Virus record (IMG/VR): IMGVR_UViG_2563366856_000003
Coordinates: 1-35,867 of that record
Origin: a virus
Taxonomy: Duplodnaviria > Heunggongvirae > Uroviricota > Caudoviricetes
Direction: 5' to 3' (one strand)
Length of the DNA: 35,867 nucleotides
Shown: positions 1,416 through 31,801 of the stretch, one piece after another
Numbering within the stretch: position 1 is the first letter of the stretch
Layout of the letters: each line of letters begins with the position of its first letter
The notes under the pieces: model-generated
What the model saw: the letters and a program-made list of their open reading frames with translations, nothing else
Told to the model about the DNA's origin: nothing
Databases searched by the model: none
Program-made: the position numbers and the translations under genes

Positions 1416-1446
1416 AGCTGCATTTATTAAGGTTATCATCCGTTTC

Positions 1447-9150: not shown

Positions 9151-9166
9151 CTGCAATGCATTGCAG
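9151..9166. promoter_or_regulatory. 16-bp perfect palindrome upstream of the phase-variable ORF (candidate regulator binding site)
   Basis: CTGCAATGCATTGCAG is its own reverse complement; lies about 115 bp upstream of the ATG at 9281; a TATAAT hexamer is at 9212-9217. Confidence 0.35.
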
Positions 9167-9280
9167 CATGATGTGCTGATGACTTCATTAAATCATGTCA
9201 CAATGTTCAGATATAATGCTTCATGTTATGAGATAGCATTCTGAATATTCATAAACATTATTAACGTTAGAGGTTGCATA

Positions 9281-9515
<235 letters not shown>

Positions 9516-9544
<29 letters not shown>

Positions 9545-10649
9545 TTGCCCTTATTATACTATAAAAGGCAATACTATAAAAGGCAACACTAAAAAAGAAA
9601 ACATTTCATCTTCTGCTGTTTTAACAACAGCCCTGCATACTTCTCTTCTAAAAATCACAACGGTAATTAATGAAATTAATTCTATTTATCCCTTTGATGT
9701 CTCAGTTGTTATTCCGGTTCACAACCGAGAAACCCTTATTCTCGAATGCATTAAATCTTTAAACAATCAGACTATAGATAAAAATTGTTTTGAAGTTATT
9801 TTCATTGATGACTGTTCCACTGACAGGAGCATTGCCGCCATTGAATATAACATTTCGAGAGAAATAAATTATCGTATTATCCGTAGAGCAGTTGGTTCAG
9901 GGAATGCATCAGCGCCGCGAAATGAGGGAATAAAATCCGCAAAAGGTCGCTATGTGTTTTTCTTAGACTCTGATGATTCCATTCACTCTGACTTACTGTC
10001 CGATGGTATTCAGATGGCTTATAAAAACAATAGTGACATTGTATATTTCAAGCAGGTTTCCTCTACAGGGAGAGGGGTTCCTGTACGCCCATTTAAGGCA
10101 GACACGAATAAAGCAGATATTATAAAAAACCATCTTTTTAGATCATTAAAAATCTTCAAGTTCTTTAAAAGAGAGTTGCTAATCAATAACAACATCTTAT
10201 TTAACCCATCAATTTCAGTCTATGAGGATATGCTTTTTTCTTGCCAGAGCCTAACTGTAGCTAATACGATATCTATACTGGCAAGAAAGGGCTACTACTC
10301 TCTGAATCGCCATGAAGAACCACATCTATCTAAAACATCTTTCTCCATTAAACAAAGAGCCTTGGTATTACAAACAGGTTTGATTTATATCTTATCAAGC
10401 AATAAAAATGAAGCAGAAATAGTAAAAATGTTTAATGCATGGCTGGTTATTTGCGTTGAGCACTTGGCATCCATATTATCCAAAAAAAGTTTAACAACTA
10501 ATGAGAAGTCTCACGTTTTTAACTTGATACATAAATCACTCTTACCATATACAGGGCTTGTAAATGAGTCCCAAATATATCCCGCACAAAGAGAGCTTGT
10601 CAGTTGCTTAATCTGTGGAGATTATTCTTCTTTTTGCGAAAAAATATAA
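9516..10649 (+). CDS. Family 2 (GT-A fold) glycosyltransferase, probable surface-polysaccharide-modifying lysogenic-conversion gene
   Basis: 377-aa ORF with VVIPVHNRE...IFIDDCSTDRS and DSDD (DXD) motifs typical of GT2; the annotated start is a GTG immediately after the repeat with no usable RBS and there is no in-frame ATG upstream of the domain; AT-rich. Confidence 0.8.
9558..9602. repeat. 15-bp tandem repeat (about 2.5 copies) in the glycosyltransferase 5' region
   Basis: ACTATAAAAGGCAAT / ACTATAAAAGGCAAC / ACTAAAAAAGAAAAC, encoding TIKGN-TIKGN-TKKEN. Confidence 0.8.
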
Positions 10650-10688
10650 AAACACTTAACTACAGATACTCCTAACTTTGTATCTGAC

Positions 10689-10718
10689 GCCCCTCACCCT
10701 AAATTAAGGGTGAGGGGC
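10689..10718. other. Perfect 11-bp GC-rich hairpin between the convergent glycosyltransferase and tail-fibre genes
   Basis: GCCCCTCACCC-TAAATTA-GGGTGAGGGGC followed by A8 on plus strand; not a canonical terminator for either strand (U-run precedes the hairpin on the minus strand). Confidence 0.6.
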
Positions 10719-10860
10719 AAAAAAAATAATTATTTGATGTTATATTTATATGCCATCACATCTTTTAACTCCAGTTGTTACGGGGAGGACAGTGACTCGT
10801 ATCAACTAAAGTTTGATCTGTAGATAACACTATTTTAAGCAGATACTCATTAAGGCTTGT

Positions 10861-13719
10861 TTATTCTGAAGTCTCCAACTTCATCAAACGATGATTTAAG
10901 TCAACAAAGCGTTCCATTAACAAATCCACCTGGCTGACAACAGCACATAGACACCACCAGAGAAGCTCCTCTTTCCGGAAGCGATAACGGCTTCCTGCTT
11001 CGGTTGCAGGGCGAACAAGAACCCTTTCCGCCTGTCGGGTAAGCACACGAGTTGTCCCGCTCAACAGCTCCCCTTCATCCGAATAAATCGCTGGCTGAAC
11101 CGGAATATCTTCATACTCTTCCGGTATATCTTCGTACTGTGCCTCCTCCGCTTCCCACGAATCCAGACAAAATGCGCTGTATTTCCGCCAGTCCAGACCG
11201 TGTTTCTCCATCACCGCTATCGCGGCCTGGACTGTCGGCCCGGCGTGCAGACGCGCGTCCTCGCCCTCCTCCTCAATTCTCTGTAACCAGCGCCACACGC
11301 CCGGAAGCCGTGCTATTTCTGCAAATGCCGCGTTTTCGGCTGCCGTCGCATCGCGCGGTGTATCCTTTAACGTCGCATCCGACACAACGGTCGGCGAGTT
11401 GCAGAGATACACGCTCCGGAACGCTTTGTTGGGCGCACCCAGGTCGCTGGTATTGTTAACCGATGGCCGGAATGCACCGTTAATATCTGTATCCATCTGC
11501 ATGAATGCAGTGCCGTCACTACGGGCTGCAATTACATAAGCGTCAGCAGAATCGTCATAAATACCCAGATTCCCGGCTGTTGATACCTGGAAAGCTCCCG
11601 CCTTCAGCGTGGTGCTGATGGCCATGCGCTTCTGGGTTTCGTCATCCGATTTAATATTCACGCCCTGCAGGTATGCCACATTCCAGCGATTTGGCGATGA
11701 CCCCAGATTCATTGCCTTGTCCTGGTCGGGATGAAATGCCGGCGAGACCGGACTCAATAATACAGACCAGGTCTCACTGCCATCGGTACAATAAAGCCTT
11801 GTGCGCCCCGCCGACTGAGTATCGTTCATTGAGTAAAGGTTAATCCCGCCACCGCTCAACAAATCCACGTCAGCGCGTATTTCCAGACAATCGTGCACGG
11901 TGTTCAGTCGGTGTTTCCACTGAACGAAGCGGCCTGTGTATTCTCCGGTTCGGAACGCATCCCCGTACAAACGAAAAACAGCAGCAGAAGTGTCTGTATC
12001 CGGAGCCTCCTTTCTGACCTCAAATAACGGGCGATGCGAGCGCAGATTCTGCTCATAGGCTGCCACCTGGAAGTCTTCATTGGGTGACAGGGCAATATTT
12101 ACAGCATTGGGACTCAGAAAAAGGCTAGCATGGCTGTCAGGAAACGCCACGCCGGAGTCCACCAGATAGCCTGTGCCGTCGTAAGCCTCCACGGAAACCA
12201 CAGCTTTGCTGCGTTTTGTCGCCACGCCACACGTATAAGACTTCGTGGCATCATATTTCGTTGCAGCCGCCGTTCCATATGCTGTAGGCGTCCAGTAAGA
12301 TGGATTCACCGGGGAACGGCCAGAAAAATTTGTTGCACGTGCTGCAAAGTATGCCCCCTCAAAAGAAACCACATCGGCTGTCTGACACCAGAAATCCATA
12401 TCGAGCAGATACAGTTTTCCGTTATGAAGAGCCAGCCCTTCGGCTTCCTGCAAAACGGGATACCCCAGCTCTGCATTCCCCAGCATTTTCTGGCGGCCAT
12501 ACCTGGCACGAACGCCATCCACATTGAACTGTCTGACAACTTCGCCCGTTGACAGGTTATATACAACAATGCGGTGAGTCAGAAATACGCCTGTATAACC
12601 GTAATAAGCAAACAGATAATGACCATCGCTGGCCATCCCCTGAAATGCCTGCGACACCATTGACTGGGTGGACAGATAAATCCGGTGTTTAAACGTCAGA
12701 GAAGCGCGATCGAAAACATAAACTGTGCGGCGGTCATCCCTGTTGTAATGAAGATGGACGGCTTCATTACTTGACTGAACAATCAACAGGCTTCCGTCTA
12801 CCGACAATGCCACCGTTATAATTTCATCCCCGGTAAAAAAGTCAGAGGTGAAAATCTCCGTACGGGTGACATCTGTCAGACTGGTGTCAGCCCCATTCCA
12901 GTTGATGATATTCACACCCTTGCCGTCAGCGGTCGGGGTATACAGCATCACGCGACCGTCTTCACATACAGCCCCGATACTCTGGTGACCAATATCAGCG
13001 AAAACGGGAGAAAACGAAATGACCGTCGGGTTTTCGTTTTCTCCGTCAGGGTTAAATGTCGTTTCAACAATCCTTACGCCACCCGATACAGGCTGATGCA
13101 GAAACATTCTGGTTCCCTGCGGCGTATCACAGATACAGAACCCCTGACTCATATTATCCGCACCGTCAAAAATCCCGGCGTAGTCAATATCGTGGACAAC
13201 TTTATGCTGAAGAACCACATCATCAATGACAGTACGATGAAAACTGGATATGGCTTTATCGACGTAATCCTGCGTCGCCATCACCGTGCTGGCATCAATA
13301 CTCAGCTCAACAGACGCCACGTTACTGACAATAATAACCATGCGGCAGGTCTGCGCACGCCCGGAGCCTTCAGCCAGTTCAGGCTTATAGCTTTCTGCCA
13401 TGTTAGCGACCGCAATCAGTGTTCCGGCATCGTCATACAGACCAAGTTCACGCATCCAGAAGCCGCCCACTTCTGGCGGTACAACCAGTTCAGCCACGAT
13501 ATAGTTTTTATTCTTGTTATCCACGCTGACTTTATTCAGGGCGTGACGCCAGACCTCATGCACCAGTTTCGTCTGACCAGCATCCGGCACCGGCAATTTG
13601 CCATTACCGTCACCCACGGCCATTGCAGACAGGGTTACTTTTTTCCCGCCGGGGACAGTGGCGGCTGCCAGCTTTGCGGCTCCGGCAGTAGTGATAACGG
13701 TTTTAAATTTCGTGCTCAT
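10861..13719 (-). CDS. H: Tail fibre protein: gpH-like N-terminus, non-P2 central/receptor-binding region, candidate C-terminal intramolecular chaperone domain
   Basis: 952-aa ORF; first about 150 aa match P2 gpH (MSTKFKTVITTAGAAKLAAAT...GGFWMRELGLYDDAGTLIAVANMAESYKP), the rest is unrelated; C-terminal region contains an S-D-x-x-x-K motif (SDATLKD); no gpG-like assembly gene follows. Confidence 0.85.
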   Translation of the reverse strand: MSTKFKTVITTAGAAKLAAATVPGGKKVTLSAMAVGDGNGKLPVPDAGQTKLVHEVWRHALNKVSVDNKNKNYIVAELVVPPEVGGFWMRELGLYDDAGTLIAVANMAESYKPELAEGSGRAQTCRMVIIVSNVASVELSIDASTVMATQDYVDKAISSFHRTVIDDVVLQHKVVHDIDYAGIFDGADNMSQGFCICDTPQGTRMFLHQPVSGGVRIVETTFNPDGENENPTVISFSPVFADIGHQSIGAVCEDGRVMLYTPTADGKGVNIINWNGADTSLTDVTRTEIFTSDFFTGDEIITVALSVDGSLLIVQSSNEAVHLHYNRDDRRTVYVFDRASLTFKHRIYLSTQSMVSQAFQGMASDGHYLFAYYGYTGVFLTHRIVVYNLSTGEVVRQFNVDGVRARYGRQKMLGNAELGYPVLQEAEGLALHNGKLYLLDMDFWCQTADVVSFEGAYFAARATNFSGRSPVNPSYWTPTAYGTAAATKYDATKSYTCGVATKRSKAVVSVEAYDGTGYLVDSGVAFPDSHASLFLSPNAVNIALSPNEDFQVAAYEQNLRSHRPLFEVRKEAPDTDTSAAVFRLYGDAFRTGEYTGRFVQWKHRLNTVHDCLEIRADVDLLSGGGINLYSMNDTQSAGRTRLYCTDGSETWSVLLSPVSPAFHPDQDKAMNLGSSPNRWNVAYLQGVNIKSDDETQKRMAISTTLKAGAFQVSTAGNLGIYDDSADAYVIAARSDGTAFMQMDTDINGAFRPSVNNTSDLGAPNKAFRSVYLCNSPTVVSDATLKDTPRDATAAENAAFAEIARLPGVWRWLQRIEEEGEDARLHAGPTVQAAIAVMEKHGLDWRKYSAFCLDSWEAEEAQYEDIPEEYEDIPVQPAIYSDEGELLSGTTRVLTRQAERVLVRPATEAGSRYRFRKEELLWWCLCAVVSQVDLLMERFVDLNHRLMKLETSE

Positions 13720-15165: not shown

Positions 15166-15513
15166 TCAACTCACAGGGATGGTTAACGAAAGTGGCTGGC
15201 CGGTGTCGTTGTGCTGGCCGGTTAAGGTGACCGTCATTCGCCCGTCAAAACTGCGCTCAGTGGTGACGGATGACAGGGTGACGCGGGGTTCCCATTTCAG
15301 CACCGCCATGTAACAGGCGACCTTAATCTGCAACTCAAGCGCCGGGGTCTGCGGCTGGTCAATCATTGACGCCAGCAACGAGCCGTAATCACGACGCATC
15401 ACCCGCGAGCCGACCGGTGTGCGCAGGATATCGCCGATACTCTGGCTGATATGCTCAAGGTCAGTGACAGTCAGGCCATCACTGCAATTCATTCCGAGAT
15501 AACGCGCTGTCAT
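15166..15513 (-). CDS. W: Baseplate protein W
   Basis: 115-aa ORF matching P2 gpW. Confidence 0.95.
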   Translation of the reverse strand: MTARYLGMNCSDGLTVTDLEHISQSIGDILRTPVGSRVMRRDYGSLLASMIDQPQTPALELQIKVACYMAVLKWEPRVTLSSVTTERSFDGRMTVTLTGQHNDTGQPLSLTIPVS

Positions 15514-16145
15514 AGAGGGCTCCCGGTTGTGCCGCCGCTGTCGCCGGGGTGTTTATGGGTATGCAGTACCTTACCGTTTGATGAGAGTTCACCGCCGGTG
15601 TGTTCAATGTTGCCGCGCATCGTCCCGCCCTTCTGCACTTCCAGCGTGCCGGTAATCAGCCTGTTGGTGCAAACCACCTCCGGTGTGTCCAGGGTGACGC
15701 GGGTTGATGCTTTCACCATGACCACCGGCACCGTGGCAGTAACAGAATCAGAAGCCGTCACGCTGGCCGTTTTAATTCCGCTTACCGTGAGTGCACTGGT
15801 TTCGGGTTCATACTCAATCACCGCCCCGTCAGGGAAACGGATATGCAGGGCATCCGCCGACGCAGACGGCGCGGGGTTATCGCCGGAATAAATCCCCGGC
15901 AGAACGAACGCCGTGTCGAGTTCACCGCCCACAGCCAGAATCAGCACCTGTTCCCCCACGGAAGGTGCCCACCATGTGCGCGAACGTCCGGCACGATGGG
16001 TCAGCCACTGAAGCCAGTCAGTGCACATGCCACCGGTCTGCACACGGCAGCGACCGGCTTTAAGGTTGGTTTCGACGACAAGGCCGGTACGAATCATGTT
16101 GCGCAGTGCGCGCGCGAGTTCCTGAATATTTGCGAGAGTGTTCAT
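15510..16145 (-). CDS. V: Baseplate spike protein V
   Basis: 211-aa product from ATG at 16143-16145 (MNTLANIQELARALRNMIRTG...) matching P2 gpV; the ORF-track start 16163 is probably too long. Confidence 0.9.
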   Translation of the reverse strand: MNTLANIQELARALRNMIRTGLVVETNLKAGRCRVQTGGMCTDWLQWLTHRAGRSRTWWAPSVGEQVLILAVGGELDTAFVLPGIYSGDNPAPSASADALHIRFPDGAVIEYEPETSALTVSGIKTASVTASDSVTATVPVVMVKASTRVTLDTPEVVCTNRLITGTLEVQKGGTMRGNIEHTGGELSSNGKVLHTHKHPGDSGGTTGSPL

Positions 16146-16228
16146 GCGTGTGAGATTGCACAATATATAAAAGTTATGCTATCTGGATTCATTTGTAGAA
16201 CGACCATACAACATTCGAGGAGAGCGTA

Positions 16229-17014
16229 ATGTTCAGTGATAATGTGACTAATGCGTGGTGGTTTATCTCTTTGTATCTATTTTTATTAATAGCATTAACA
16301 TTTATTACCTTTGGTAAAAGTAATCTTATGAGGTTTATTGCACATCATTTCAATTTTGAGTATTCAGACAGAAAGTTAAAAATGCTCGACAAAAAATGGC
16401 GCGACATTCAACTATTTAAAATAATTAACGGAATCAATGTATCAGGCATCGAAGATGTGAGAATGATACAGCAGGGGCTGATTGATGGAAAACTAAAAAC
16501 ATCGTATTTTTTTCTTACTCGCTTCTGGGGTGACATAACAAAACCACCACACATAATTAAAACAATAATTGTAATTCTGTCCAGCATTATTTATATTCTC
16601 TTCGCATGTTATATACACAACAAACAATCCGCTATAGTAAGAGATGCCATAGGCATACCATATAAAAATATGATGTACTATGTTTATAGTGACAAAGTTC
16701 TTTTATCCTTCAACAATAAAACAGTTGAATTCAATAAAACTTATAGCCTTGCCGATTGCAAGAGGCTACGAAACATATTTATAAAAGACACACTTCCTGA
16801 GATCGCCTGCAATAAGCTCTTACAGCTAAACGAGGAGGACTCGGAATGGTTAAGTCAGGAGATTAAAGATAATAACAGCCAAAAAAAAGCATTATTAATA
16901 ATATCCCTCATCTATTTCATTTCAGGTCTGGTTATATTCCTGTCATATACAAAATTCCTTTACGCCAATAAGAAGGTTGTAGAATACAAAGCATCAAATA
17001 AAAATCACTCATAA
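16229..17014 (+). CDS. Hypothetical membrane protein (three predicted TM helices), AT-rich moron opposite to the late genes
   Basis: 261-aa ORF with strong GGAGAG Shine-Dalgarno; hydrophobic segments at N-terminus, middle and C-terminus; lysine/asparagine-rich; occupies the P2 orf30 position between V and S. Confidence 0.7.
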   Translation: MFSDNVTNAWWFISLYLFLLIALTFITFGKSNLMRFIAHHFNFEYSDRKLKMLDKKWRDIQLFKIINGINVSGIEDVRMIQQGLIDGKLKTSYFFLTRFWGDITKPPHIIKTIIVILSSIIYILFACYIHNKQSAIVRDAIGIPYKNMMYYVYSDKVLLSFNNKTVEFNKTYSLADCKRLRNIFIKDTLPEIACNKLLQLNEEDSEWLSQEIKDNNSQKKALLIISLIYFISGLVIFLSYTKFLYANKKVVEYKASNKNHS

Positions 17015-17019
17015 GCCTC

Positions 17020-17056
17020 TAAACATTGAGCGACCAGCATGGCCGCTCAATGTTTA
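17020..17056. other. 13-bp perfect inverted repeat between the convergent moron and S genes
   Basis: TAAACATTGAGCG ... CGCTCAATGTTTA with 11-nt loop; no flanking U-run. Confidence 0.6.
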
Positions 17057-17085
17057 ATTGCGCATCAGCCTCTGCCTGGATAAAA

Positions 17086-17538
17086 CTAACGCTCAAGGTG
17101 AGCCAGGATAATCTCTTCAATCATCTGCACATCCTCACCGGTAAAGCCGAGCAGAGGACGCGCCGGATAATCAATTTTCTTACCGTCTTTCCGGGTTTCT
17201 TCCGACAGACCGAACTGATGCACACTGGCGATTTTCGGCGACTTCCCGCCGTAAAATTCCATTGATGCCTGTTCCGGGCTGGCGCGGATATGCAAAAAAC
17301 GACTGGTAATAAGTTTCGCAAACATTTTTCGCTTAACGCGACCGGTCTTTTTTCTGGCGCTCTGCTGCTGACGTGGCGCGTAGGGGGTGCCGTCCGGGGC
17401 TTTCTGTGCCATCACCCGACGCTGCTGACTCTGACGCAGACGTTTCGCCAGTTCGGCGCTCAGTCGCCGACGCCCTGACGGTGACAGCGATTCAATCAGC
17501 CCGGTCAGCCGGTCTTCAAAACGCTTAAACTCATTCAT
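17086..17538 (-). CDS. S: Tail completion protein S
   Basis: 150-aa ORF matching P2 gpS. Confidence 0.95.
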   Translation of the reverse strand: MNEFKRFEDRLTGLIESLSPSGRRRLSAELAKRLRQSQQRRVMAQKAPDGTPYAPRQQQSARKKTGRVKRKMFAKLITSRFLHIRASPEQASMEFYGGKSPKIASVHQFGLSEETRKDGKKIDYPARPLLGFTGEDVQMIEEIILAHLER

Positions 17539-23286: not shown

Positions 23287-23459
23287 TGTCAGGAGTCCTG
23301 AATAGTGATTAGAGGAGTCACATGTCGGCATCAGTTTCCCGACGATGCGCATCCTCCGCCATCAGTCCCGGATGGCTTATCACTGACACAACAGCACCTT
23401 AGCGAATCGCGGGGCGCGACTCAGTAGCCTTGCCGTGTATTCATCACGGCGAGGTATTC
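23287..23459. promoter_or_regulatory. Divergent late promoter region between O and P (expected Ogr-dependent promoters)
   Basis: Intergenic region between divergently oriented O and P, position equivalent to P2 late promoters; individual promoter elements not resolved by eye. Confidence 0.4.
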
Positions 23460-25232
23460 ATGACCATCACCACAGACACCACTCTTTTACACGACCCGCG
23501 TCGTCAGGCGGCGCTGCTGTACTGGCAGGGGTTTTCCGTGCCGCAGATTGCCGCCATGTTGCAGATGAAACGCCCGACGGTGCAGAGCTGGAAACAGCGC
23601 GACGGCTGGGACAGCGTTGCCCCCATCAGCCGTGTCGAAATGAGTCTGGAAGCGCGGCTGACCCAGCTCATCATCAAACCGCAGAAAACCGGCGGTGACT
23701 TCAAGGAAATTGACCTGCTGGGACGCCAGATTGAACGGCTGGCGCGGGTCAACCGCTACAGTCAGACCGGCAACGAGGCAGACCTTAATCCGAACGTCGC
23801 TAACCGCAACAAAGGCGGGCGTCGCAAACCGAAAAAGAATTTTTTCAGTGATGAGGCCATCGAAAAGCTGGAGCAGATTTTCTTTGAGCAGTCTTTCGAC
23901 TATCAGTTGCACTGGTATCGCGCCGGGCTTGAGCACCGCATCCGCGATATCCTGAAATCCCGCCAGATTGGCGCGACGTTTTATTTTTCCCGCGAGGCGC
24001 TGCTGCGCGCCCTGAAAACCGGTCATAACCAGATTTTTCTGTCGGCCAGTAAAACGCAGGCGTATGTGTTCCGCGAATACATCATCGCCTTTGCCCGGCT
24101 GGTTGACGTTGACCTGACCGGTGACCCGATTGTCCTGGGCAATAACGGCGCAAAACTGATTTTTCTCGGCACCAACTCCAACACCGCGCAGAGCCATAAC
24201 GGCGACCTGTACGTCGATGAGATTTTCTGGATCCCGAATTTTCAGGTACTGCGTAAGGTGGCATCAGGTATGGCCTCACAGAGTCACCTGCGCTCGACCT
24301 ATTTCTCCACCCCGTCCACGCTGGCGCACGACGCCTATCCGTTCTGGTCGGGTGAACTGTTCAACCGGGGACGCGCCAGCGCCGCCGAACGCGTGGAAAT
24401 CGACGTCAGTCATAACGCCCTTGCCGGTGGGCTTCTCTGTGCGGACGGCCAGTGGCGGCAGATTGTCACCATTGAGGACGCCCTGAAAGGTGGCTGCACG
24501 CTGTTCGACATTGAGCAGCTTAAACGCGAAAACAGCGCCGACGATTTTAAAAACCTGTTCATGTGTGAATTTGTTGACGACAAGGCGTCGGTATTCCCGT
24601 TCGAGGAGCTGCAACGCTGCATGGTCGACACGCTGGAAGAATGGGAAGACTATGCGCCGTTTGCCGCGAATCCGTTCGGCTCCCGCCCGGTCTGGATTGG
24701 TTACGACCCGTCACACCGTGGCGACAGTGCCGGATGCGTGGTGCTGGCACCGCCGGTGGTGGCCGGTGGCAAATTCAGAATACTTGAGCGTCACCAGTGG
24801 AAAGGCATGGACTTTGCCACCCAGGCTGAATCCATCCGCAAACTCACCGAAAAATACAACGTCGAATACATCGGTATTGATGCCACCGGCCTCGGTGTCG
24901 GCGTGTTCCAGCTCGTGCGCTCGTTCTATCCCGCCGCGCGCGACATCCGCTACACGCCGGAAATGAAAACCGCAATGGTGCTCAAGGCAAAAGACGTCAT
25001 CCGCCGTGGCTGTCTGGAATACGACGTCAGCGCCACCGACATCACCAGCTCGTTTATGGCTATCCGCAAGACCATGACCAGCAGCGGACGCAGTGCCACC
25101 TATGAAGCTAGCCGCAGCGAGGAAGCCAGCCACGCCGACCTCGCCTGGGCGACCATGCACGCCCTGTTAAATGAGCCACTCACCGCCGGTATCAGCACCC
25201 CGCTGACATCCACCATTCTGGAGTTTTACTGA
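23460..25232 (+). CDS. P: Terminase large (ATPase) subunit P
   Basis: 590-aa product from ATG at 23460 (MTITTDTTLLHDPRRQAALLYWQGF...) preceded by GAGG; matches P2 gpP. Confidence 0.9.
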   Translation: MTITTDTTLLHDPRRQAALLYWQGFSVPQIAAMLQMKRPTVQSWKQRDGWDSVAPISRVEMSLEARLTQLIIKPQKTGGDFKEIDLLGRQIERLARVNRYSQTGNEADLNPNVANRNKGGRRKPKKNFFSDEAIEKLEQIFFEQSFDYQLHWYRAGLEHRIRDILKSRQIGATFYFSREALLRALKTGHNQIFLSASKTQAYVFREYIIAFARLVDVDLTGDPIVLGNNGAKLIFLGTNSNTAQSHNGDLYVDEIFWIPNFQVLRKVASGMASQSHLRSTYFSTPSTLAHDAYPFWSGELFNRGRASAAERVEIDVSHNALAGGLLCADGQWRQIVTIEDALKGGCTLFDIEQLKRENSADDFKNLFMCEFVDDKASVFPFEELQRCMVDTLEEWEDYAPFAANPFGSRPVWIGYDPSHRGDSAGCVVLAPPVVAGGKFRILERHQWKGMDFATQAESIRKLTEKYNVEYIGIDATGLGVGVFQLVRSFYPAARDIRYTPEMKTAMVLKAKDVIRRGCLEYDVSATDITSSFMAIRKTMTSSGRSATYEASRSEEASHADLAWATMHALLNEPLTAGISTPLTSTILEFY

Positions 25233-26266
25233 TGAGCAAGAAAAAAGGGAAAACACCGCAACCTGCGGCAAAAAAAATGACCGCCAGCGCCCCGAAAATG
25301 GCGGCATTCACCTTTGGTGAGCCGGTGCCGGTACTCGACCGCCGTGATATTCTGGATTACGTCGAGTGCATCAGTAACGGCAGATGGTATGAGCCACCGG
25401 TCAGCTTTACCGGTCTGGCAAAAAGCCTGCGTGCTGCCGTGCATCACAGCTCACCGATTTACGTCAAACGTAATATTCTGGCCTCAACGTTTATCCCGCA
25501 CCCGTGGCTTTCCCAGCAGGATTTCAGCCGCTTTGTGCTGGATTTTCTGGTGTTCGGTAATGCGTTTCTGGAAAAGCGTTACAGCACTACCGGTAAGGTC
25601 ATCAGACTGGAAACCTCACCGGCAAAATATACCCGCCGTGGGGTGGAGGAGGATGTTTACTGGTGGGTGCCGTCCTTCAACGAGCCGACACCTTTCACGC
25701 CCGGCTCCGTGTTTCACCTGCTGGAGCCGGATATTAATCAGGAGCTGTACGGCCTGCCGGAATATCTCAGCGCCCTTAACTCTGCCTGGCTGAATGAGTC
25801 GGCCACGCTGTTCCGCCGCAAGTATTACGAAAACGGCGCACATGCCGGATACATCATGTACGTCACTGATGCCGTGCAGGATCGCAACGATATCGAAATG
25901 CTTCGCGAAAACATGGTGAAGTCGAAAGGCCGCAACAACTTTAAAAACCTGTTTCTCTATGCCCCACAGGGAAAAGCCGACGGCATTAAAATTATCCCGC
26001 TCAGTGAAGTGGCGACGAAGGACGATTTTTTTAATATCAAAAAAGCCAGTGCCGCAGACCTGCTGGACGCGCACCGCATCCCCTTTCAGTTGATGGGCGG
26101 CAAGCCGGAGAACGTCGGGTCGCTGGGTGATATTGAGAAAGTGGCAAAGGTCTTTGTCCGCAATGAGCTTATCCCGTTACAGGACAGGATCCGTGAGATA
26201 AACGGCTGGCTCGGTCAGGAGGTCATCCGCTTTAAAAACTACTCACTGGACACTGACAACGGCTGA
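25232..26266 (+). CDS. Q: Portal protein Q
   Basis: 344-aa ORF matching P2 gpQ; start overlaps P stop. Confidence 0.95.
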   Translation: MSKKKGKTPQPAAKKMTASAPKMAAFTFGEPVPVLDRRDILDYVECISNGRWYEPPVSFTGLAKSLRAAVHHSSPIYVKRNILASTFIPHPWLSQQDFSRFVLDFLVFGNAFLEKRYSTTGKVIRLETSPAKYTRRGVEEDVYWWVPSFNEPTPFTPGSVFHLLEPDINQELYGLPEYLSALNSAWLNESATLFRRKYYENGAHAGYIMYVTDAVQDRNDIEMLRENMVKSKGRNNFKNLFLYAPQGKADGIKIIPLSEVATKDDFFNIKKASAADLLDAHRIPFQLMGGKPENVGSLGDIEKVAKVFVRNELIPLQDRIREINGWLGQEVIRFKNYSLDTDNG

Positions 26267-26434: not shown

Positions 26435-26453
26435 GTGCTTTCCCCGCCTCGCC
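26435..26453. other. cos: cos site (19-nt cohesive end of P2-type phages)
   Basis: GTGCTTTCCCCGCCTCGCC is the reverse complement of the recalled P2 cohesive end GGCGAGGCGGGGAAAGCAC; located after Q as in P2. Confidence 0.7.
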
Positions 26454-26595
26454 CGCCCGCTTCGTGGGGCGGTTTTAATGCAGATGCATTATGAGCCCTG
26501 AGCTGCGCCTAACGTGACACAGTTCACGAGAAAAATAGGAATTATCAAATGCAATTTCATGCAGATAGAGAGGCATGAGATCCCGAAGCATATAT

Positions 26596-27948
26596 TCAAC
26601 CCTCTGCCGAAATATTTCTTTGGAGAAATGCTCTAATTTTTTGCCTGAAAGCCTCACATTCATCAGGCTTTAACCTCTCAAGGTATTCAAAAACCCTAGT
26701 TTCATCCCAGCCGTTGTTATAGGTTTTCACTACCCCTCGATAAACTTGCTTATCAAGTTTATCGTTACCTCTAGTTGTAACTCTCGGGATCGATTCATCT
26801 TGGCCGTATGCTTGATAGAAATCCTTCTCAACGCTTTGGAAAGGTATGCATAAAATATTTTCACCTCGAGCATGCCTTTGACCTAATTGATCTCCGTCTA
26901 ACACTGAGATCACATTCTGTTGAGTCGTGAGAAAGCTCTCTCTCTCATTACGACGCATTAAATCAATGACATTAGTTCCTCCACCAACATATATTATTTT
27001 ATATTCGTAGAAGTAATCATTCCCAGGAGCATTAATTATATATTCTAAGAAATTTTGCAGAACTTCATCTTCAGTAAGAATGTACTTATCCCATCCTTTA
27101 AATCCAAAAAGCGTACTTTTTATATAATTATATGATCGATTTGTAATTGTAGTTCCAGCATCACCTTCGCACATATAGTACAATTCATCATCATTCAGCG
27201 TTTGCATTAAAGCAAGTGAATGTGTTGTGAATACAATATTCACCGAGTGTCTCTGACAATATTTCCTTAGCACTGCTATAAGATGGACTTGCGCCGAAGA
27301 GTCTAGTGATATATCTATCTCATCTATGACAATGAATTTTCTTTTGAGCTCAATCATTCTAAATAAATTCAAAATAAAATACTCACCCGAGCTAAAGTAA
27401 TCCTCCCTTATGTATGTTCCGTTCTCATTCAATCTGAAATAGAAAATTTCATTTTTTACAGAAAATGCTTTAAGATTATTGTAAGAAGAAGACTGATATA
27501 CCTCATTGAGTATATTTATCAAATCCTCGGGAACGCTATAGCTTTCAAACGCAATACTTTTTCTAAGTTCAGTATCAATTTTACTAAGTGTTGGGAAGTT
27601 ATTGAACCTCATTCCATGAGGAATGGGCAACTCGACATAAAGATTGGATTTTATATCTGCTGGAATTATTTGCTTAGTATCTATTACCTTCAAATTCTCA
27701 TCATAGACATATACTATATCTTGATCATTAATATTATATACTATACTACTGTCAGGATTGAATATATATCTAGAAGATGTCTTTATGAATGTATCTGCTG
27801 ATTGTAAATTTTTAATTGCTTTGATTAGCGTTGTCTTTCCAGCACCGTTCTTTCCTACAATGCAAGTCAGTTTATTTTCAGAAAGATCAATAGCAAATGA
27901 CATATGTTCAACATGCTGGATTTTCGAGATCTCAATGTTTATTTTCAT
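26596..27948 (-). CDS. OLD-like ABC-type ATPase with C-terminal Toprim-like region (candidate effector of RT-associated defence system)
   Basis: 450-aa ORF: Walker A GKNGAGKTT, signature-like SSGEYF, Walker B FIVIDEID, H-loop TTHS, then TEDE ... VLDGDQ resembling Toprim Glu and DxD; ATG one base after the RT stop; AT-rich. Confidence 0.8.
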   Translation of the reverse strand: MKINIEISKIQHVEHMSFAIDLSENKLTCIVGKNGAGKTTLIKAIKNLQSADTFIKTSSRYIFNPDSSIVYNINDQDIVYVYDENLKVIDTKQIIPADIKSNLYVELPIPHGMRFNNFPTLSKIDTELRKSIAFESYSVPEDLINILNEVYQSSSYNNLKAFSVKNEIFYFRLNENGTYIREDYFSSGEYFILNLFRMIELKRKFIVIDEIDISLDSSAQVHLIAVLRKYCQRHSVNIVFTTHSLALMQTLNDDELYYMCEGDAGTTITNRSYNYIKSTLFGFKGWDKYILTEDEVLQNFLEYIINAPGNDYFYEYKIIYVGGGTNVIDLMRRNERESFLTTQQNVISVLDGDQLGQRHARGENILCIPFQSVEKDFYQAYGQDESIPRVTTRGNDKLDKQVYRGVVKTYNNGWDETRVFEYLERLKPDECEAFRQKIRAFLQRNISAEG

Positions 27949-27949
27949 T

Positions 27950-28939
27950 TTAATTTACATTCTTGTAAAAAAGCATATCGACAATCGTATTTCCGTATTT
28001 TCTCTTTAGCTTATCGAGATAACTCTTATCAATTGTGTTTATATGATTCAAAAGACCAGAAACTGTATTAATGCCCTTTTCCAAGATCTCACTATCATTC
28101 AATCCGCTAGTTTTAACCTTAGGATCTTTTATTATAGAATCTATAAATTTATCTTTATCCGTTACATAAAAATGAATCAAATGCTCAAGCTTTCTTTTTA
28201 TTTTAATATCAACAGAGACTATCTGAGACGGTAAAATAACCATCCCCAGCAGCTTAATCTTACTGCCTTTTTTAATCAATTTAGTTTTTGCTGAGTTTAG
28301 TTTGAAATGTCCCTTCCCAAACTCACCCAGCAGGTCACTTACTACAGAATGAATATTCTCAAAGCCCTCATCATTTTCAGAGGAAATAATAATATCATCT
28401 GAATAGCGTGTGAATATATATTCATGGTTAATACAATATTGCTGCATCTCAACATCAAAGTCATATAAACATGCATTGCTGAAAGCTGGTGATGTCGGGA
28501 ACCCTACAGGCAACGAATTATCGATAATAATATAATCTAAAATTTTATCCAAGTGTATATTTAAATCGGAAATGGGAACGTTCGATAAGTTATCAACTAA
28601 AACTGATCGTGCATATTCACGAGTTATCGATGGGAAAAAGCTTTTAATATCAGTATTGAAGAATATCTTACTACAGGCGTGAAGTTTTACTGCATCATAA
28701 GTGCTGCTTCCTTTTCTATACGAAAACACAACATCCTTATTTACTTTCAAGTATGAAAGAACAAATTCATTTATGAATTTGTGATACTCTTTTAGTTTAG
28801 AAGTGGGCTCAGCAATTAACCTTTCATCAAAGGTTATAAATTTAGTTTGTTGAAATGGTTCAAACGAAAGAAAGTTTTGAAAGGAATCTTTTTCGAAGAA
28901 TGCAATATTGAAGGCTTTTTCGAGACTAAGGGGTTTCAT
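27950..28939 (-). CDS. Reverse transcriptase, retron-type size
   Basis: 329-aa ORF with RT motifs NTDIKSFFPSI (motif A-like), LPVGFPTSPAFSNACL (motif B'), YSDD (YxDD catalytic motif C); AT-rich; sits at the P2 old/tin position. Confidence 0.85.
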   Translation of the reverse strand: MKPLSLEKAFNIAFFEKDSFQNFLSFEPFQQTKFITFDERLIAEPTSKLKEYHKFINEFVLSYLKVNKDVVFSYRKGSSTYDAVKLHACSKIFFNTDIKSFFPSITREYARSVLVDNLSNVPISDLNIHLDKILDYIIIDNSLPVGFPTSPAFSNACLYDFDVEMQQYCINHEYIFTRYSDDIIISSENDEGFENIHSVVSDLLGEFGKGHFKLNSAKTKLIKKGSKIKLLGMVILPSQIVSVDIKIKRKLEHLIHFYVTDKDKFIDSIIKDPKVKTSGLNDSEILEKGINTVSGLLNHINTIDKSYLDKLKRKYGNTIVDMLFYKNVN

Positions 28940-29265
28940 CGTTGGCTGAGCTTTTGTTTTTTGAGTTGAATGGATTCTAAGATGAATGCTTTAACTCTCA
29001 GTCTTTCCTCACCCCAGACACCCTCCCTTCGCAGACTTTACTTCTTGTACATACCTTCTCTCGAAAGAGAAGGCAGTACAAGAGCAACACTATATAAAGG
29101 CCTGTAGAGGCCAACATTTATGACTGGAGATGCTCCTAGTCGTTGGCATAAAAACACTTTAAACCAGATTATGAGCATTTACAACATTTCAAGCCGTCGA
29201 ACGCAGCCCCAATCAGAAAAGAACTCACACGGCCATCATAACATCATGATTTAGATGGATATAAA
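28940..29265 (-). ncRNA. Candidate retron non-coding RNA (msr-msd) region upstream of the RT
   Basis: Non-coding 326 bp between A stop and RT start on the RT strand with several stable stem-loops: composite 15-bp stem 29044-29082 with 4-nt loop (UUCG on the RT strand), hairpins at 29099-29112 and 29110-29147; a1/a2 terminal repeats not identified. Confidence 0.45.
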
Positions 29266-31536
29266 TCACCCTTCATGCTTCACCCACTCGTCCGCTATCG
29301 GGTATACAAATCTTTTTTCGCCATAAACCACTATTCCGCCACGAGCCAGCGCCTGAAGTTCCCACCGCTGCGGCGTGATACCCTGCTGCGCCAGTTCGAA
29401 GCGGATGCGCGGAATCTGAGCCCTCTCGGCTTTTGTCATTCGCCCTGATGGTGCTATCTGATGCGGTTTTAATGGCTCATCGCTTCTTTGCTGTCGATTT
29501 TGCTGCGGCGCGCCGTGTTTTAATGCACTCCTGAGCACCGTCACAACTTCGGGGTCATCCCATGCAATAACCCCATCATCGACAAGATTTAGCACCGCTG
29601 CCGCATGCTCAGACGGCGTAGGTGTCATAACTGGATCGCCACCGTCGGCAAGCTTTCCACAGTTATTGACAGGACTCCGAGGCGCGGCGATGCCGCTTTT
29701 TAAAGTCAAAGGCTCAACGACCGGAACTTTCGGCACAATGCGCCAGTCCGTCGTTCTGGTGATATGAATATGACGCGCGCCGAGATGCGGCGCGTAAATG
29801 CCGACCACTCTCTCGACTTCTTCCTCGTACTCGTTAACGTCATCCGACGGGCTACGGGCAACCCTGACAGTCTGACAATCGCGCGGGACATTTGCCCCAC
29901 CCTGCGCGCTGATATACAACGCAAAATCACCACTGTCTGCGGCAGCACGAGCAGCCTCGACGCGTTCGTCAAACTCATCAGCAATACTGACGCCGCGAGG
30001 CAATTTGCGTAGTTCACGGTAAGCCCCCATTGTCGGCAGTCCAACCGTTTTAAATTGCGGGATGCGCCACGTTGACGCCCATGCGGTAACAGCCGCGGCA
30101 GTATCTTTCAGCGGCCTGCCGGTATCGTTATCGAGCTGCCCATCCAGTGCATAGCCGTCGATATTTTTTGAGATATATTTCGCGATATACCCCGCAGCAC
30201 CGCCCCGGTTAAGATGTTTTGCCTGAAAACGGTTTCGCGCGGCTCCTCTTTCGTCGCCATCCTCTTTGAGCGCATAGCGACGCATGATTTCGATAATCTG
30301 GTTACGCTGGCGTGGATTACAAAAAAGCATCATATGCCAGTGCGGCGTTCCGTCGTGGTGTGGCTCGACGACACGCAAACCGTAGACCTGTAAATCATTA
30401 TCCTTGAATGCCGTGCGCATCAGGCTCCAGATACGGCAGAGATAACGCTGCGCATCCTTTGGATTAAATGCCTCATCGTTCCAACCGTGATTAAGCTGCA
30501 CGGTTTTACTTTCGCCTTTTCCGACCTGACGTGTCGGGTGATACTTTGACGGCGCGGTCAGCGTGATAAACATCCCCACATCACCCTCTGCAGCGGCGTA
30601 ACGCTCAATACCGGCAATGGTGTTCATCAGCTCCATCCGGCGAATTTCAGGATTAGAAATACTGCCCATCACCTTACTGATAAGGTCGATGCGCTCGCCG
30701 GTTTCCCTGTTTTCAAGGTCACACGATTTAAGAAACTCCAGATTTGCCTGGCGGCGCGCACGCACATCACGAATGGCATGTTTACTGGCATAAGGTGAAC
30801 GGTCTTTATTGACCTCCCCGACAGCAATCAGTAACGCTTCATGCCAGCGCATACGCTGGCCTTTAAGCTGATGAGTCCACCACTCATCGTTAAACAGACG
30901 GGCAATGGCAGAATATGCCTGCCTCGTGGTCATCTGCCCTTTACGGTATTTTTTCCAGTAGAGAGGGGAAATATTGAAAGCACGTGCAGCGCCAGCAACA
31001 TGACCATAGAGGTGAGCCTGCGCCTCATCCGTAAACAGCGATTCTTTTTCGCCATGCGCATCCACCCAGGCATCGCTGAGTTCCTCATACATCATGAAAA
31101 GCTGCGATGAGATACGGGCAGCAAACTTTTTCAGCTCCTTGTCATTCATTCCCGGCAGGCGCGCATAGTGGTCACGCTCTGCCAGAAACAGTAACGACGC
31201 GTCGGTGTTCATTTCATGGCGCTGATTCACACGCTCAATGCGCGGCCATAAACGACGCTGAAAAGTGGATGTGAGGAAATAAAACCCGTGTACCGGGCTT
31301 TTATTGCGCCGGATGTAGTCATAGCGTGAAGTAAACAGCGAGCGCAAAAAGTAAGGCAGGCGGTTAATCGTGGATAAAACACCTTGCACCTGACGCATCT
31401 CGTCACGTGTAAGGGGTCTTTCGCGCCCGACGGCCTCGCGTGGCGCGTTCCATGCATAAGCACCGGTAAACGCCTTACCGGTGCCTGCAGCAAATGCTGA
31501 AGGAGGGACAAAACGCCCGGAGGCTTTAACGGCCAT
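29266..31536 (-). CDS. A: Replication initiation protein A (rolling-circle nickase)
   Basis: Matches P2 gpA from MAVKASGRFVPPSAFAAGTGK...; start set to the internal ATG at 31534-31536 corresponding to the P2 start (the ORF-track start 31578 adds 14 aa); C-terminal about 100 aa diverge from P2. Confidence 0.9.
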   Translation of the reverse strand: MAVKASGRFVPPSAFAAGTGKAFTGAYAWNAPREAVGRERPLTRDEMRQVQGVLSTINRLPYFLRSLFTSRYDYIRRNKSPVHGFYFLTSTFQRRLWPRIERVNQRHEMNTDASLLFLAERDHYARLPGMNDKELKKFAARISSQLFMMYEELSDAWVDAHGEKESLFTDEAQAHLYGHVAGAARAFNISPLYWKKYRKGQMTTRQAYSAIARLFNDEWWTHQLKGQRMRWHEALLIAVGEVNKDRSPYASKHAIRDVRARRQANLEFLKSCDLENRETGERIDLISKVMGSISNPEIRRMELMNTIAGIERYAAAEGDVGMFITLTAPSKYHPTRQVGKGESKTVQLNHGWNDEAFNPKDAQRYLCRIWSLMRTAFKDNDLQVYGLRVVEPHHDGTPHWHMMLFCNPRQRNQIIEIMRRYALKEDGDERGAARNRFQAKHLNRGGAAGYIAKYISKNIDGYALDGQLDNDTGRPLKDTAAAVTAWASTWRIPQFKTVGLPTMGAYRELRKLPRGVSIADEFDERVEAARAAADSGDFALYISAQGGANVPRDCQTVRVARSPSDDVNEYEEEVERVVGIYAPHLGARHIHITRTTDWRIVPKVPVVEPLTLKSGIAAPRSPVNNCGKLADGGDPVMTPTPSEHAAAVLNLVDDGVIAWDDPEVVTVLRSALKHGAPQQNRQQRSDEPLKPHQIAPSGRMTKAERAQIPRIRFELAQQGITPQRWELQALARGGIVVYGEKRFVYPIADEWVKHEG
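29666..29685 (-). other. ori: Probable origin of replication (A-protein nick site) inside gene A
   Basis: Minus strand reads GCGCCTCGGAGTCCTGTCAA, matching the recalled P2 ori nick-site sequence located within the A coding region. Confidence 0.5.
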
Positions 31537-31801
31537 ATAAGCCAAAAGCCTCTGAACAACGCCTGCTGAGTTGCTCAACCTGCGCGTTTAAATCAGCAAA
31601 AGACTTTGCGCTTCCGGTCAGAATATCGTGATGCATCAGGCCGGAAACGAGCTGGCTTAATTTCGGATAATAACCAACCACCGCCAGCCATTCCTGACCG
31701 GCGTTTTTACCGCTTTCCGCTCTCTTTTTCTCGTGGAGAATAAACTGAAAGCTGTCACTGGTAACGACATAACGTTCGCCAATTTCAATACGAATACTCA
31801 T
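31526..31801 (-). CDS. Hypothetical early-operon protein (P2 orf83 position)
   Basis: 91-aa ORF immediately upstream of A in the early operon; function unknown. Confidence 0.6.
   Translation of the reverse strand: MSIRIEIGERYVVTSDSFQFILHEKKRAESGKNAGQEWLAVVGYYPKLSQLVSGLMHHDILTGSAKSFADLNAQVEQLSRRCSEAFGLYGR

What the first reader, a model, noticed from the sequence alone, without database searches (positions are those of the whole stretch)
26596..29265. Reverse transcriptase plus OLD-like ATPase/Toprim cassette with structured upstream RNA replaces P2 old/tin next to cos: probable retron-type anti-phage system
Between cos and gene A, where P2 carries old and tin, there is a two-gene AT-rich operon on the minus strand. 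The first gene encodes a compact 329-aa reverse transcriptase with recognisable RT motifs (DIKSFF, LPVGFPTSPAFSNACL, YSDD). The second encodes a 450-aa ABC-type ATPase (GKNGAGKTT, FIVIDEID) with a Toprim-like C-terminus (TEDE, DGD), and its ATG sits one base after the RT stop. Upstream of the RT is a 326-bp non-coding region rich in stable stem-loops. RT size, OLD-family partner and upstream structured RNA fit a retron of the RT plus ATPase-Toprim class. Replacement of the ancestral Old nuclease by an RT-guarded OLD-like nuclease at the same hotspot is notable, and this specific pairing may be uncharacterised.
Basis: partly seen in the sequence, partly recalled or inferred. Interest (0 to 1): 0.9.

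Follow-up and report, generated by a model that had tools for sequence, protein, structure and literature searches.

The report
Type I-B1 retron in P2 prophage
A P2-like prophage of E. coli carries, in its known cargo hotspot next to cos, a reverse transcriptase, an OLD-type ATPase-nuclease and a structured RNA that together match a predicted but experimentally untested retron subtype (I-B1), most likely an anti-phage suicide system.

Summary
Two intact minus-strand genes (RT 27950-28939, ATPase-Toprim 26596-27948, 1 nt apart) and a 326-nt structured leader sit in an AT-rich island between gene A and cos of a P2-like prophage.

The retron interpretation is largely right, but this is a known kind. 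PADLOC profiles RT_I-B (366 bits) and ATPase-Toprim_I-B (595 bits) match full length. The EDxxL and DxD motifs and the RT-then-effector order define Mestre type I-B1, equal to OLD class 3B. It is not the Eco8 type (I-B2).

The pair is conserved in 68 of 80 related loci. I mapped the ncRNA to 29149-29032. It has a covarying stem P1, an invariant hairpin P2, a CYCUAS motif and a long hairpin. A covariance model scores it at 72.8 bits.

The P2 hotspot is already known to hold retrons, and this RT accession is listed in the published hotspot table.

What remains open is mechanism. No I-B1 retron has been shown to defend. The family lacks canonical a1/a2 end-pairing. The two I-B1 retrons assayed elsewhere gave no RT-DNA on gels.

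Verdict: new member of a known kind, moderate interest.

The parts
29156..29184 (-). Predicted sigma-70 promoter of the ncRNA: -35 TTGTAA (29184-29179), 17-nt spacer, -10 TAAAGT (29161-29156). The predicted +1 is the A at 29149.
   Evidence: This is inferred. A TAnnnT hexamer lies 6-7 nt upstream of the conserved AUG/AUA start of the RNA motif in essentially every related locus, in both orientations. The match to consensus is weak (8/12), so the simple scan did not list it.
29032..29149 (-). Retron ncRNA (msr/msd-like). P1 5' strand 29147-29142. Invariant G 29141. P2 hairpin 29141-29122. P1 3' strand 29115-29110. Conserved CUCUAC 29109-29104. Outer helix 29104-29100 with 29036-29032. Long hairpin 29087-29038 with a UUCG loop.
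   Evidence: The covariance model R1 hits the window once, at 29095-29151(-), 72.8 bits, E 4e-22, and hits 66 related loci. P1 covaries: no shuffle out of 500 reached the observed score, and GC/AU/UA/UG swaps are seen. The fold has z = -5.5. No Rfam family matches.
28940..29031 (-). Spacer between the ncRNA and the RT start. It includes a GA-rich tract (about 29030-28990). There is no obvious Shine-Dalgarno sequence before the ATG at 28939.
   Evidence: Read directly from the sequence. It is conserved only with the closest relative L001. Related loci carry CU-rich or tandem-repeat tracts at this position.
27950..28939 (-). Retron reverse transcriptase, 329 aa, catalytic motif YSDD (RT clade 1, type I-B1).
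   Evidence: PADLOC RT_I-B 4.5e-110, full length. Pfam RVT_1 8e-19. The best solved relatives are retron RTs: 22et, Ec78/Eco7 and Ec83. Eco8 RT scores only 4.5e-8. The group II intron model scores 44.7 bits against a cut-off of 300.
26596..27948 (-). Effector: OLD-family ABC ATPase (about residues 1-280) plus Toprim nuclease (about 283-385) plus C-terminal helical bundle. This is OLD class 3B.
26435..26453 (.). P2-type cos site (19-nt cohesive-end sequence). The cargo boundary on this side lies at about 26484-26547.
   Evidence: The sequence is identical to the reverse complement of the P2 cosR end. Homology to other P2-like prophages stops at about 26527. Homology to the Erwinia cassette stops at 26547.
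29266..31578 (-). P2 gene A (replication endonuclease). It forms the other border of the hotspot.
   Evidence: Pfam Phage_GPA 7e-124. About 96-97% DNA identity to P2-like phages, which carry other cargo between A and Q.

Best explanation
This is a type I-B1 retron, whose effector is a class 3B OLD nuclease. It is carried as exchangeable cargo in the cos-proximal (gpA-gpQ) hotspot of a P2-like prophage integrated next to cyaR in E. coli.

The module has three parts. First, a self-contained ncRNA of about 118 nt with its own promoter. Second, a compact clade-1 retron RT. Third, a translationally coupled OLD-family ATPase-Toprim nuclease.

The most likely mechanism is inferred from the solved Eco8 (I-B2) and Ec78/Ec83 (I-A) systems. 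The RT binds the P1/P2 handle of the ncRNA and copies the long hairpin into DNA. The RT, RNA and DNA complex then holds the ATPase-nuclease in an inactive state. A phage product or process disturbs that nucleic acid or complex. The Toprim nuclease is released and cuts nucleic acid. The infected lysogen dies before the competing phage completes its cycle (abortive infection), which protects the prophage's clonal hosts.

Shown here: identity and intactness of all three parts, conservation of their linkage, covariation in the RNA, and the OLD fold. Inferred: cDNA synthesis, sequestration, the trigger, the substrate (DNA or tRNA), and defence itself.
For: Full-length, very strong matches to the two I-B profiles. 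The effector carries Mestre's I-B1 signature, Toprim motif IV EDxxL (TEDEVL) and motif V DxD (DGD), and lies downstream of the RT as in class 3B. RT and effector are adjacent in 68 of 80 related loci from Gamma-, Beta- and Epsilonproteobacteria, Bacteroidota and Firmicutes MAGs. All ATPase and Toprim catalytic residues are invariant in 36 homologues. The OLD fold is confirmed. A conserved, covarying RNA lies next to the RT in 66 loci and once in the window. The flanks are 96-97% identical to P2-like phages that hold other cargo at this site, and that site is a published defence hotspot that includes retrons. The cassette is 99.7-99.9% identical and intact in nine complete E. coli genomes and 97.6% identical in a tenth, out of 5,426. 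For mechanism by analogy, Eco8 forms an RT-msDNA-OLD tetramer that is autoinhibited until phage SSB binds the msdDNA.
Confidence: 0.8

Rival explanations
1. The module is a genuine RT + ncRNA + OLD defence system, but not a canonical msDNA retron. The ncRNA would be a stand-alone unit without a1/a2. Its cDNA would be a near full-length, low-abundance or infection-induced copy, primed in a way other than the classical branched G next to an end-to-end stem.
For: The 5' end pairs locally in P1 (cognate-versus-non-cognate mean rank 0.14), and not with anything 60-300 nt downstream (mean rank about 0.5). In 13 loci the ncRNA is on the strand opposite to the RT, and conservation stops at the 3' base of the long hairpin. 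The census reports '0 by PAGE' for I-B1 retron Mestre-308. It also reports a sequenced 116-nt RT-DNA that runs from the hairpin's 3' base to the first nucleotide of P1, reading through the invariant G.
Against: There is a single experiment, in a heterologous construct without the effector and with a re-arranged operon. An RT-DNA invisible on gels could be background. Mestre et al. state that a consensus IB1 msr/msd structure with the usual features exists, but I could not see the figure. An invariant G directly follows a 6-nt 5' stem strand, much like the G8 that primes in type I-A.
Confidence: 0.3
2. The Toprim effector acts on tRNA rather than on DNA. It would stop translation instead of degrading genomes.
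For: Recent papers report that P2 Old cuts the anticodon arm of tRNAs (PMC12445682, title and abstract). They also report that the AriB Toprim of PARIS is a tRNA nuclease (PMC12409363). AriB and OLD Toprim domains are both structural neighbours of this C-terminal domain.
Against: The closest functionally studied retron OLD, Eco8, degrades phage and host DNA. The nearest structural matches, TsOLD and BpOLD, are described as DNA nucleases. No substrate test is possible with these tools.
Confidence: 0.3
3. The cassette is an inactive remnant, or a non-defence cargo of the prophage.
For: It is rare (10 of 5,426 complete genomes). The RT start has no clear ribosome-binding site. No RT-DNA was seen on gels for relatives.
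Against: Both ORFs are intact and all catalytic residues are kept. The genes show translational coupling. The RNA keeps every invariant position of the family. Near-identical copies occur in unrelated strains from humans, pig, baboon and otter.
Confidence: 0.05
4. The RT belongs to another RT lineage, such as a group II intron, an Abi/DRT (UG) RT or a DGR. Alternatively, the pair is a type I-A (Septu-like) retron that lost its HNH gene.
For: P2-like phages are known to carry Abi-P2-type RTs in variable loci (Odegrip 2006, cited). The ATPase also hits PtuA/Septu profiles weakly.
Against: RT_I-B scores 366 bits, against 141 bits for RT_I-A. Drt2 and Drt3a score 40-42 bits and the group II model 44.7 bits, all far below their cut-offs. 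No group II intron RNA was found. The effector has its own Toprim nuclease. cos follows directly, leaving no room for an HNH gene.
Confidence: 0.02

Closest known systems
Retron type I-B1 (Mestre et al. 2020, RT clade 1 + cluster 22_2), equal to class 3B OLD systems (Dot et al. 2023, as cited in PMC10568477)
   Same: The gene order is ncRNA, RT, ATPase-Toprim. The Toprim motifs are EDxxL and DxD. The RT is nearest to clade-1 retron RTs. PADLOC I-B profiles match full length.
   Different: I found no difference. This is a member of the type. The subtype itself has no described or tested representative in Mestre's Table 1. It has only negative gel data for RT-DNA.
Retron-Eco8 (type I-B2, class 3A OLD)
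   Same: It is a three-part system of RT, ncRNA and an OLD-family ATPase-Toprim effector. Defence requires the RT YADD motif, the branching G, Walker B and the Toprim DxD. It is an abortive-infection system triggered by phage SSB binding the msdDNA.
   Different: In Eco8 the effector lies upstream of the ncRNA and RT, the RT is clade 3, and Toprim motif IV reads EGxxE. Sequence similarity is marginal: the RT scores E 4.5e-8 and the effector is not found by phmmer. The Eco8 OLD chain in the PDB is 738 residues, against 450 aa here.
Type I-A retrons Ec78/Eco7 and Ec83/Eco4 (RT + PtuA ATPase + PtuB HNH)
   Different: The nuclease there is a separate HNH protein, whereas here a Toprim is fused to the ATPase. 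[quoted passage not shown]
P2 Old (class 1 OLD) and the P2 old/tin hotspot
   Same: The genomic slot is the same, between gene A and cos. The domain architecture is also the same overall, ABC ATPase plus Toprim.
   Different: P2 Old is a 586-aa single-gene system. Profile comparison aligns only the Walker B segment, with probability 51%. There is no evidence of descent from Old.

Membership tests
Retron (general) | The RT belongs to the retron RT lineage. | tested here: met
   PADLOC RT_I-B scores 366 bits, and all further hits are retron RT profiles. All top PDB hits are retron RTs. The group II intron and DRT models score far below their cut-offs.
Retron (general) | Retron RT signature motifs NAxxH and VTG. 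| tested here: inconclusive
   The NAxxH position reads DAVKLH. A83 is nearly invariant and H87 invariant, but N is not kept. The VTG position reads LLG, with only G232 (and L231) invariant in 22 homologues.
Retron (general) | An adjacent ncRNA with short msr hairpin(s) and a long msd hairpin. | tested here: met
   The P1/P2 domain plus a long hairpin is present. The covariance model scores 72.8 bits in the window and hits 66 related loci. P1 covaries. The fold has z = -5.5.
Retron (general) | Terminal inverted repeats a1/a2 that enclose msr and msd, with a conserved branching G at the end of a1. | tested here: not met
   An invariant G (29141) follows the 5' stem strand. Its partner strand, however, lies 25 nt downstream, before the long hairpin. 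There is no cognate-specific complementarity to sequence 60-300 nt downstream (mean rank about 0.5, against 0.14 for P1).
Retron (general) | Production of branched multicopy msDNA. | not testable with these tools
   From the literature only: two I-B1 retrons gave '0 by PAGE', and one gave a sequenced 116-nt RT-DNA (PMC10849725 supplement).
Retron type I-B1 / OLD class 3B | The effector is an ABC ATPase plus Toprim with motif IV EDxxL and motif V DxD, encoded downstream of a clade-1 RT. | tested here: met
   TEDEVL (E293, D294) and D351-G-D353 are present and conserved. The effector ATG lies 1 nt after the RT stop. The definitions come from PMC7736814 and PMC10568477.
Retron type I-B2 (Eco8-like) / OLD class 3A | The effector lies upstream of the ncRNA and RT, the RT is clade 3, and Toprim motif IV reads EGxxE. 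| tested here: not met
   The gene order is opposite and the motif is EDxxL. The second PADLOC RT_I-B profile, PDLC02938, scores 115 bits against 366 for PDLC02937. Eco8 RT scores E 4.5e-8.
OLD family nuclease | An N-terminal ABC ATPase with Walker A, signature, Walker B and H-loop. | tested here: met
OLD family nuclease | A C-terminal Toprim catalytic domain. | tested here: met
Retron type I-A (Septu-like) | A separate HNH nuclease gene (PtuB) downstream of the ATPase. | tested here: not met
   The only ORF after the effector is a 62-aa ORF that overlaps its end and has no family hit. cos begins 143 nt downstream.
P2 cos-proximal defence hotspot cargo | Located between gpA and cos/gpQ of a P2-like phage, with conserved flanks and variable content. 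| tested here: met
   The flanks are 96-97% identical to many Peduovirus genomes that carry other genes in this position. The cassette itself is absent from 50,697 phage records. The hotspot is described in PMC9122126.

The most novel reading that the evidence does not exclude
Type I-B1 'retrons', this one included, may not make classical msDNA. Their ncRNA is an autonomous unit with its own promoter, and it can sit in either orientation relative to the RT. Its 5' end is locked into a local stem rather than an end-to-end a1/a2 stem. The only cDNA recorded for the subtype is a gel-invisible, near full-length copy of the whole RNA. If that holds, cDNA synthesis could be primed differently, and could be rare or switched on by infection. 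That would be a distinct way of coupling an RT to an OLD nuclease.
Probability: 0.3. Interest if true: 0.65.

Novelty: new member of a known kind. Interest (0 to 1): 0.4.

Why it matters
This locus gives an E. coli, prophage-borne, natural-promoter example of the one OLD-retron subtype that has never been tested. It sits in a host and phage background (P2 lysogens) where exclusion assays are classical. It would allow a direct comparison of two independent marriages of a retron RT with an OLD nuclease, I-B1 against Eco8/I-B2. It would also show whether the odd RNA topology changes how the DNA sensor is made. For genome annotation, the RefSeq names 'AAA family ATPase' and 'reverse transcriptase family protein' can be replaced by 'retron I-B1 effector' and 'retron I-B1 RT', and the ncRNA can now be annotated.

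Tried and rejected
- Rfam, both evalue mode on 28800-29400 and gathering mode on the whole window: no retron, group II or other family matches at the locus.
- Pfam on the isolated C-terminal 168 aa: no hit.
- HMM profile of the C-terminal domain against PDB sequences: no hit.
- hhalign of the family profile against P2 Old: only the Walker B region aligns.
- phmmer of the effector against the PDB: only generic ABC ATPases; Eco8 OLD is not found.
- BLAST of the cassette against 50,697 phage records: no match.
- Search for a canonical a2, in three ways: RNAduplex with shuffles, cognate versus non-cognate with hairpin-defined flanks, and fixed windows with a P1 positive control. All were negative for end-to-end pairing.
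- I also looked for a helix between the segment after CYCUAS and the segment after the hairpin. It is plausible in individual loci (L001, L007, L017, L027, L031), but it is not significant family-wide.
- I considered a branching G in the UUUAK/UUGAU loop 5' of the hairpin. I rejected it as a family rule because L007 and the L011 group have no G there.
- The 62-aa ORF 26475-26663 that overlaps the effector end has no family hits and is treated as spurious.
- The supplements of Mestre et al. 2020, which hold the IB1 structure figure, are not held.
Full report
**Observation.**
The RT is 27950..28939(-), 329 aa. The ATPase is 26596..27948(-), 450 aa. A single base separates the RT stop from the effector ATG. 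Every quoted motif is present. The cassette is an AT-rich island, with GC 0.31-0.40 against about 0.55 around it. The 326-nt leader folds better than all 100 shuffles, z = -2.7.

The flanks are P2-like. A GPA-family replication endonuclease lies at 29266-31578(-). Terminase and portal genes lie at 23430-26266(+). The 19-nt P2 cos sequence lies at 26435-26453. In P2 itself this slot holds orf91, tin and old. P2-like phages match both flanks at 96-97% identity but carry other genes in between, including ParB, VbhT, DUF4238, ParaMORC3+Dcm and DUF4209. None of 50,697 phage records contains this cassette. It occurs intact in 10 of 5,426 complete E. coli genomes. Nine copies are 99.7-99.9% identical and one is 97.6% identical. 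They are annotated only as 'AAA family ATPase' and 'reverse transcriptase family protein'. One example is a complete prophage in strain A30.

**What the proteins are.**
The RT matches PADLOC RT_I-B over its full length (4.5e-110, 366 bits). The next best profiles are other retron RTs. Pfam gives RVT_1. NCBIfam's retron St85 model gives 177 bits, while the group II intron, Drt2 and Drt3a models give 40-45 bits, far below their cut-offs. The nearest solved proteins are retron RTs of clade 1: 22et, Ec78/Eco7 and Ec83, at E 3e-22 to 1e-16. Eco8 RT reaches only 4.5e-8.

The second protein matches PADLOC ATPase-Toprim_I-B end to end (3.4e-179, 595 bits). It also matches Pfam AAA_21, AAA_15 and ABC_tran. 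In 36 homologues the following are invariant:
- the Walker A lysine K38
- the ABC signature S187-G-E189
- Walker B D209/E210
- the H-loop H243
- E293 in LTEDxxL
- D351-G-D353

**Testing the Toprim domain.**

**Classification.**
Mestre et al. 2020 split RT + ATPase-Toprim retrons into two subtypes. I-B1 has an RT of clade 1, effector cluster 22_2 and Toprim motif IV EDxxL, with no described member. I-B2 has an RT of clade 3, cluster 159_1 and motif EGxxE. The OLD review equates I-B2 with class 3A, where OLD lies upstream and Eco8 is the example. It equates I-B1 with class 3B, where OLD lies downstream of the RT. The window has TEDEVL, DGD, a clade-1-like RT and the effector downstream. It is therefore I-B1 / class 3B, not Eco8-like.

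The linkage is conserved. An alignment-driven scan of one genome per species returned 80 loci. In 68 of them a homologue of the effector starts a few to about 45 nt after the RT, or of the RT fragment where the contig is cut. These loci come from Gamma-, Beta- and Epsilonproteobacteria, Bacteroidota and Firmicutes MAGs. Only one other locus, from Shewanella, has a gpA homologue nearby. The module therefore moves between contexts.

**The RNA.**
Anchoring the upstream regions on a shared GACUAGGAG motif revealed a common plan. In order, the elements are:
- a TAnnnT -10-like hexamer
- 6-7 nt of spacer
- AUG or AUA
- a 6-nt stem strand (P1)
- an invariant G that opens an almost invariant hairpin, GACUAGGAG-NNN-CUCCAGUC (P2)
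- a 5-7-nt linker
- the P1 partner strand
- a conserved CYCUAS motif
- a semi-conserved U-rich segment
- a long, sequence-variable hairpin whose base is typically UUAC...GUAA

P1 covaries, with GC, AU, UA and UG swaps. Across the P1 and P2 pairs 93.8% of cells pair, and no shuffle out of 500 reached the observed covariation. Sliding the partner strand drops pairing to 18-45%. A covariance model built on this domain hits the window once, at 29095-29151(-), 72.8 bits, E 4e-22. It hits 66 related loci.

In window coordinates on the minus strand:

| Element | Coordinates |
|---|---|
| Predicted +1 | 29149 |
| P1 | 29147-29142 with 29115-29110 |
| Invariant G | 29141 |
| P2 | 29141-29122 |
| CUCUAC | 29109-29104 |
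| Long hairpin | 29087-29038 |
| Outer helix | 29104-29100 with 29036-29032 |

The 120-nt RNA folds at -46 kcal/mol, z = -5.5.

In 13 loci the RNA lies on the strand opposite to the RT. Among those loci, conservation ends at the 3' base of the hairpin. The RNA is thus an autonomous transcription unit. This supports the promoter inference, and it shows that nothing in the RT leader is required in cis.

**What does not fit the textbook retron.**
In canonical retrons the 5' end (a1) pairs with the 3' end (a2) beyond the msd. Here the 5' strand pairs with a segment before the long hairpin. I ran a cognate-versus-non-cognate duplex test. The 8-18 nt before the invariant G show no preference for their own downstream 60-300 nt (mean rank about 0.5). 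The P1 control gives mean rank 0.14, with 27 of 61 loci in the best decile. Two other formulations were also negative.

The only experimental data I found for the subtype are in the supplement of the retron census (PMC10849725). Two I-B1 retrons were expressed as RT + ncRNA, and both gave RT-DNA '0 by PAGE'. For one of them, Mestre-308 from Pseudomonas/Atopomonas hussainii, a sequenced RT-DNA of 116 nt is listed. Its effector is 50% identical to the window's. That RT-DNA is the complement of the RNA from the hairpin's 3' base (GUAAAAAA) through CUCUAG and P2 to the first nucleotide of P1. It therefore covers exactly the conserved RNA and reads through the invariant G. The second construct lacked P1/P2 and gave nothing.

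I cannot say how that cDNA is primed. The geometry of a short 5' stem strand followed by an invariant G resembles type I-A, where G8 primes. In I-A, however, the 5' and 3' ends do pair.

**How it most likely works.**
The model is by analogy and is marked as inference. In Eco8, the RT, the msrRNA-msdDNA and the OLD effector form an autoinhibited tetramer. Phage SSB binding to the msdDNA opens the nuclease, which degrades phage and host DNA and kills the cell. Type I-A retrons likewise assemble RT, RNA, DNA, an SMC-like ATPase and a nuclease into one complex. I expect the same logic here: an RT-made nucleic acid acts as a leash and sensor on an ATPase-Toprim nuclease, and the outcome is abortive infection that benefits the P2 lysogen. 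The trigger is unknown. The substrate could be DNA, as for Eco8 and TsOLD. It could also be tRNA, as recently reported for P2 Old and for the AriB Toprim.

**Novelty.**
The kind is known and is recognised by standard tools. The hotspot is known to hold retrons. The arrangement 'RVT_1 + AAA_21', with RT accession WP_024248662, appears in Rousset et al.'s Table S5A. That is the accession RefSeq gives the 99.9% identical copy. It does not appear among the curated or tested systems I could read there. I found no paper reporting defence, structure or biochemistry for any I-B1 / class 3B system.

I therefore rate this a new member of a known kind. It has one loose end of real interest, the non-canonical RNA topology and the elusive msDNA.

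Noticed in passing
window 1445-1530 (+): A CyaR/RyeE sRNA gene (Rfam RF00112, 100.7 bits) lies at the left end of the window. The P2-like prophage therefore sits next to cyaR. In strain A30 the other side of the near-identical prophage abuts yegS. No tRNA gene is present in the window.
   Followed up: partly
window 8500-11000: A second AT-rich island (GC 0.34-0.40) lies between the tail sheath gene (7048-8388, -) and the tail fibre gene (10861-13719, -). It holds a family-2 glycosyltransferase ORF (9516-10649, +; Pfam Glycos_transf_2, 1.7e-28), possibly a surface-modification or seroconversion cargo. An 87-aa ORF (9281-9544) has a weak resemblance to a type III methyltransferase. There is no PADLOC system hit.
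   Followed up: partly
window 16164-17085: A third AT-rich island (GC 0.33) lies between baseplate gene V (15510-16163, -) and virion morphogenesis gene S (17086-17538, -). It holds ORFs of 128 aa (15843-16229, +) and 261 aa (16229-17014, +) with no Pfam or PADLOC family. In the otherwise near-identical prophage of E. coli A30, this slot carries a Pycsar system, a cyclase plus an effector.
   Followed up: partly
L010, L018, L019, L026, L034, L037, L042, L047, L049, L050, L051, L067, L073 (about 50-230 nt upstream of the RT start in each locus): In these 13 related loci, mostly Betaproteobacteria, the conserved retron RNA is encoded on the strand opposite to the RT-effector operon. It is transcribed divergently from its own -10 box.
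   Followed up: yes
L031 and L020, just 3' of the long hairpin; window 29030-28990 (-): Low-complexity tracts follow the hairpin. Many loci have CU-rich runs. L031 has tandem (CUCCAG)n and L020 has (CACUCUCAG)n. The window and Erwinia L001 instead have a GA-rich tract. The RT ATG at 28939 lacks an obvious Shine-Dalgarno sequence. I did not determine the function of these tracts; translational control of the RT is one possibility.
   Followed up: no
window 26475-26663 (-): A 62-aa ORF overlaps the 3' end of the effector gene and runs towards cos. It has no Pfam, PADLOC or NCBIfam hit and is probably not a gene.
   Followed up: partly
window 29266-29352 versus L001 1312-1400: A blastn alignment between the window cassette and the Erwinia locus L001 extends about 87 nt past the leader into the 3' end of gene A, although L001 shows no gpA homologue by tblastn. 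This could be a remnant of a P2-like border carried along with the cassette, or a weak alignment extension.
   Followed up: no
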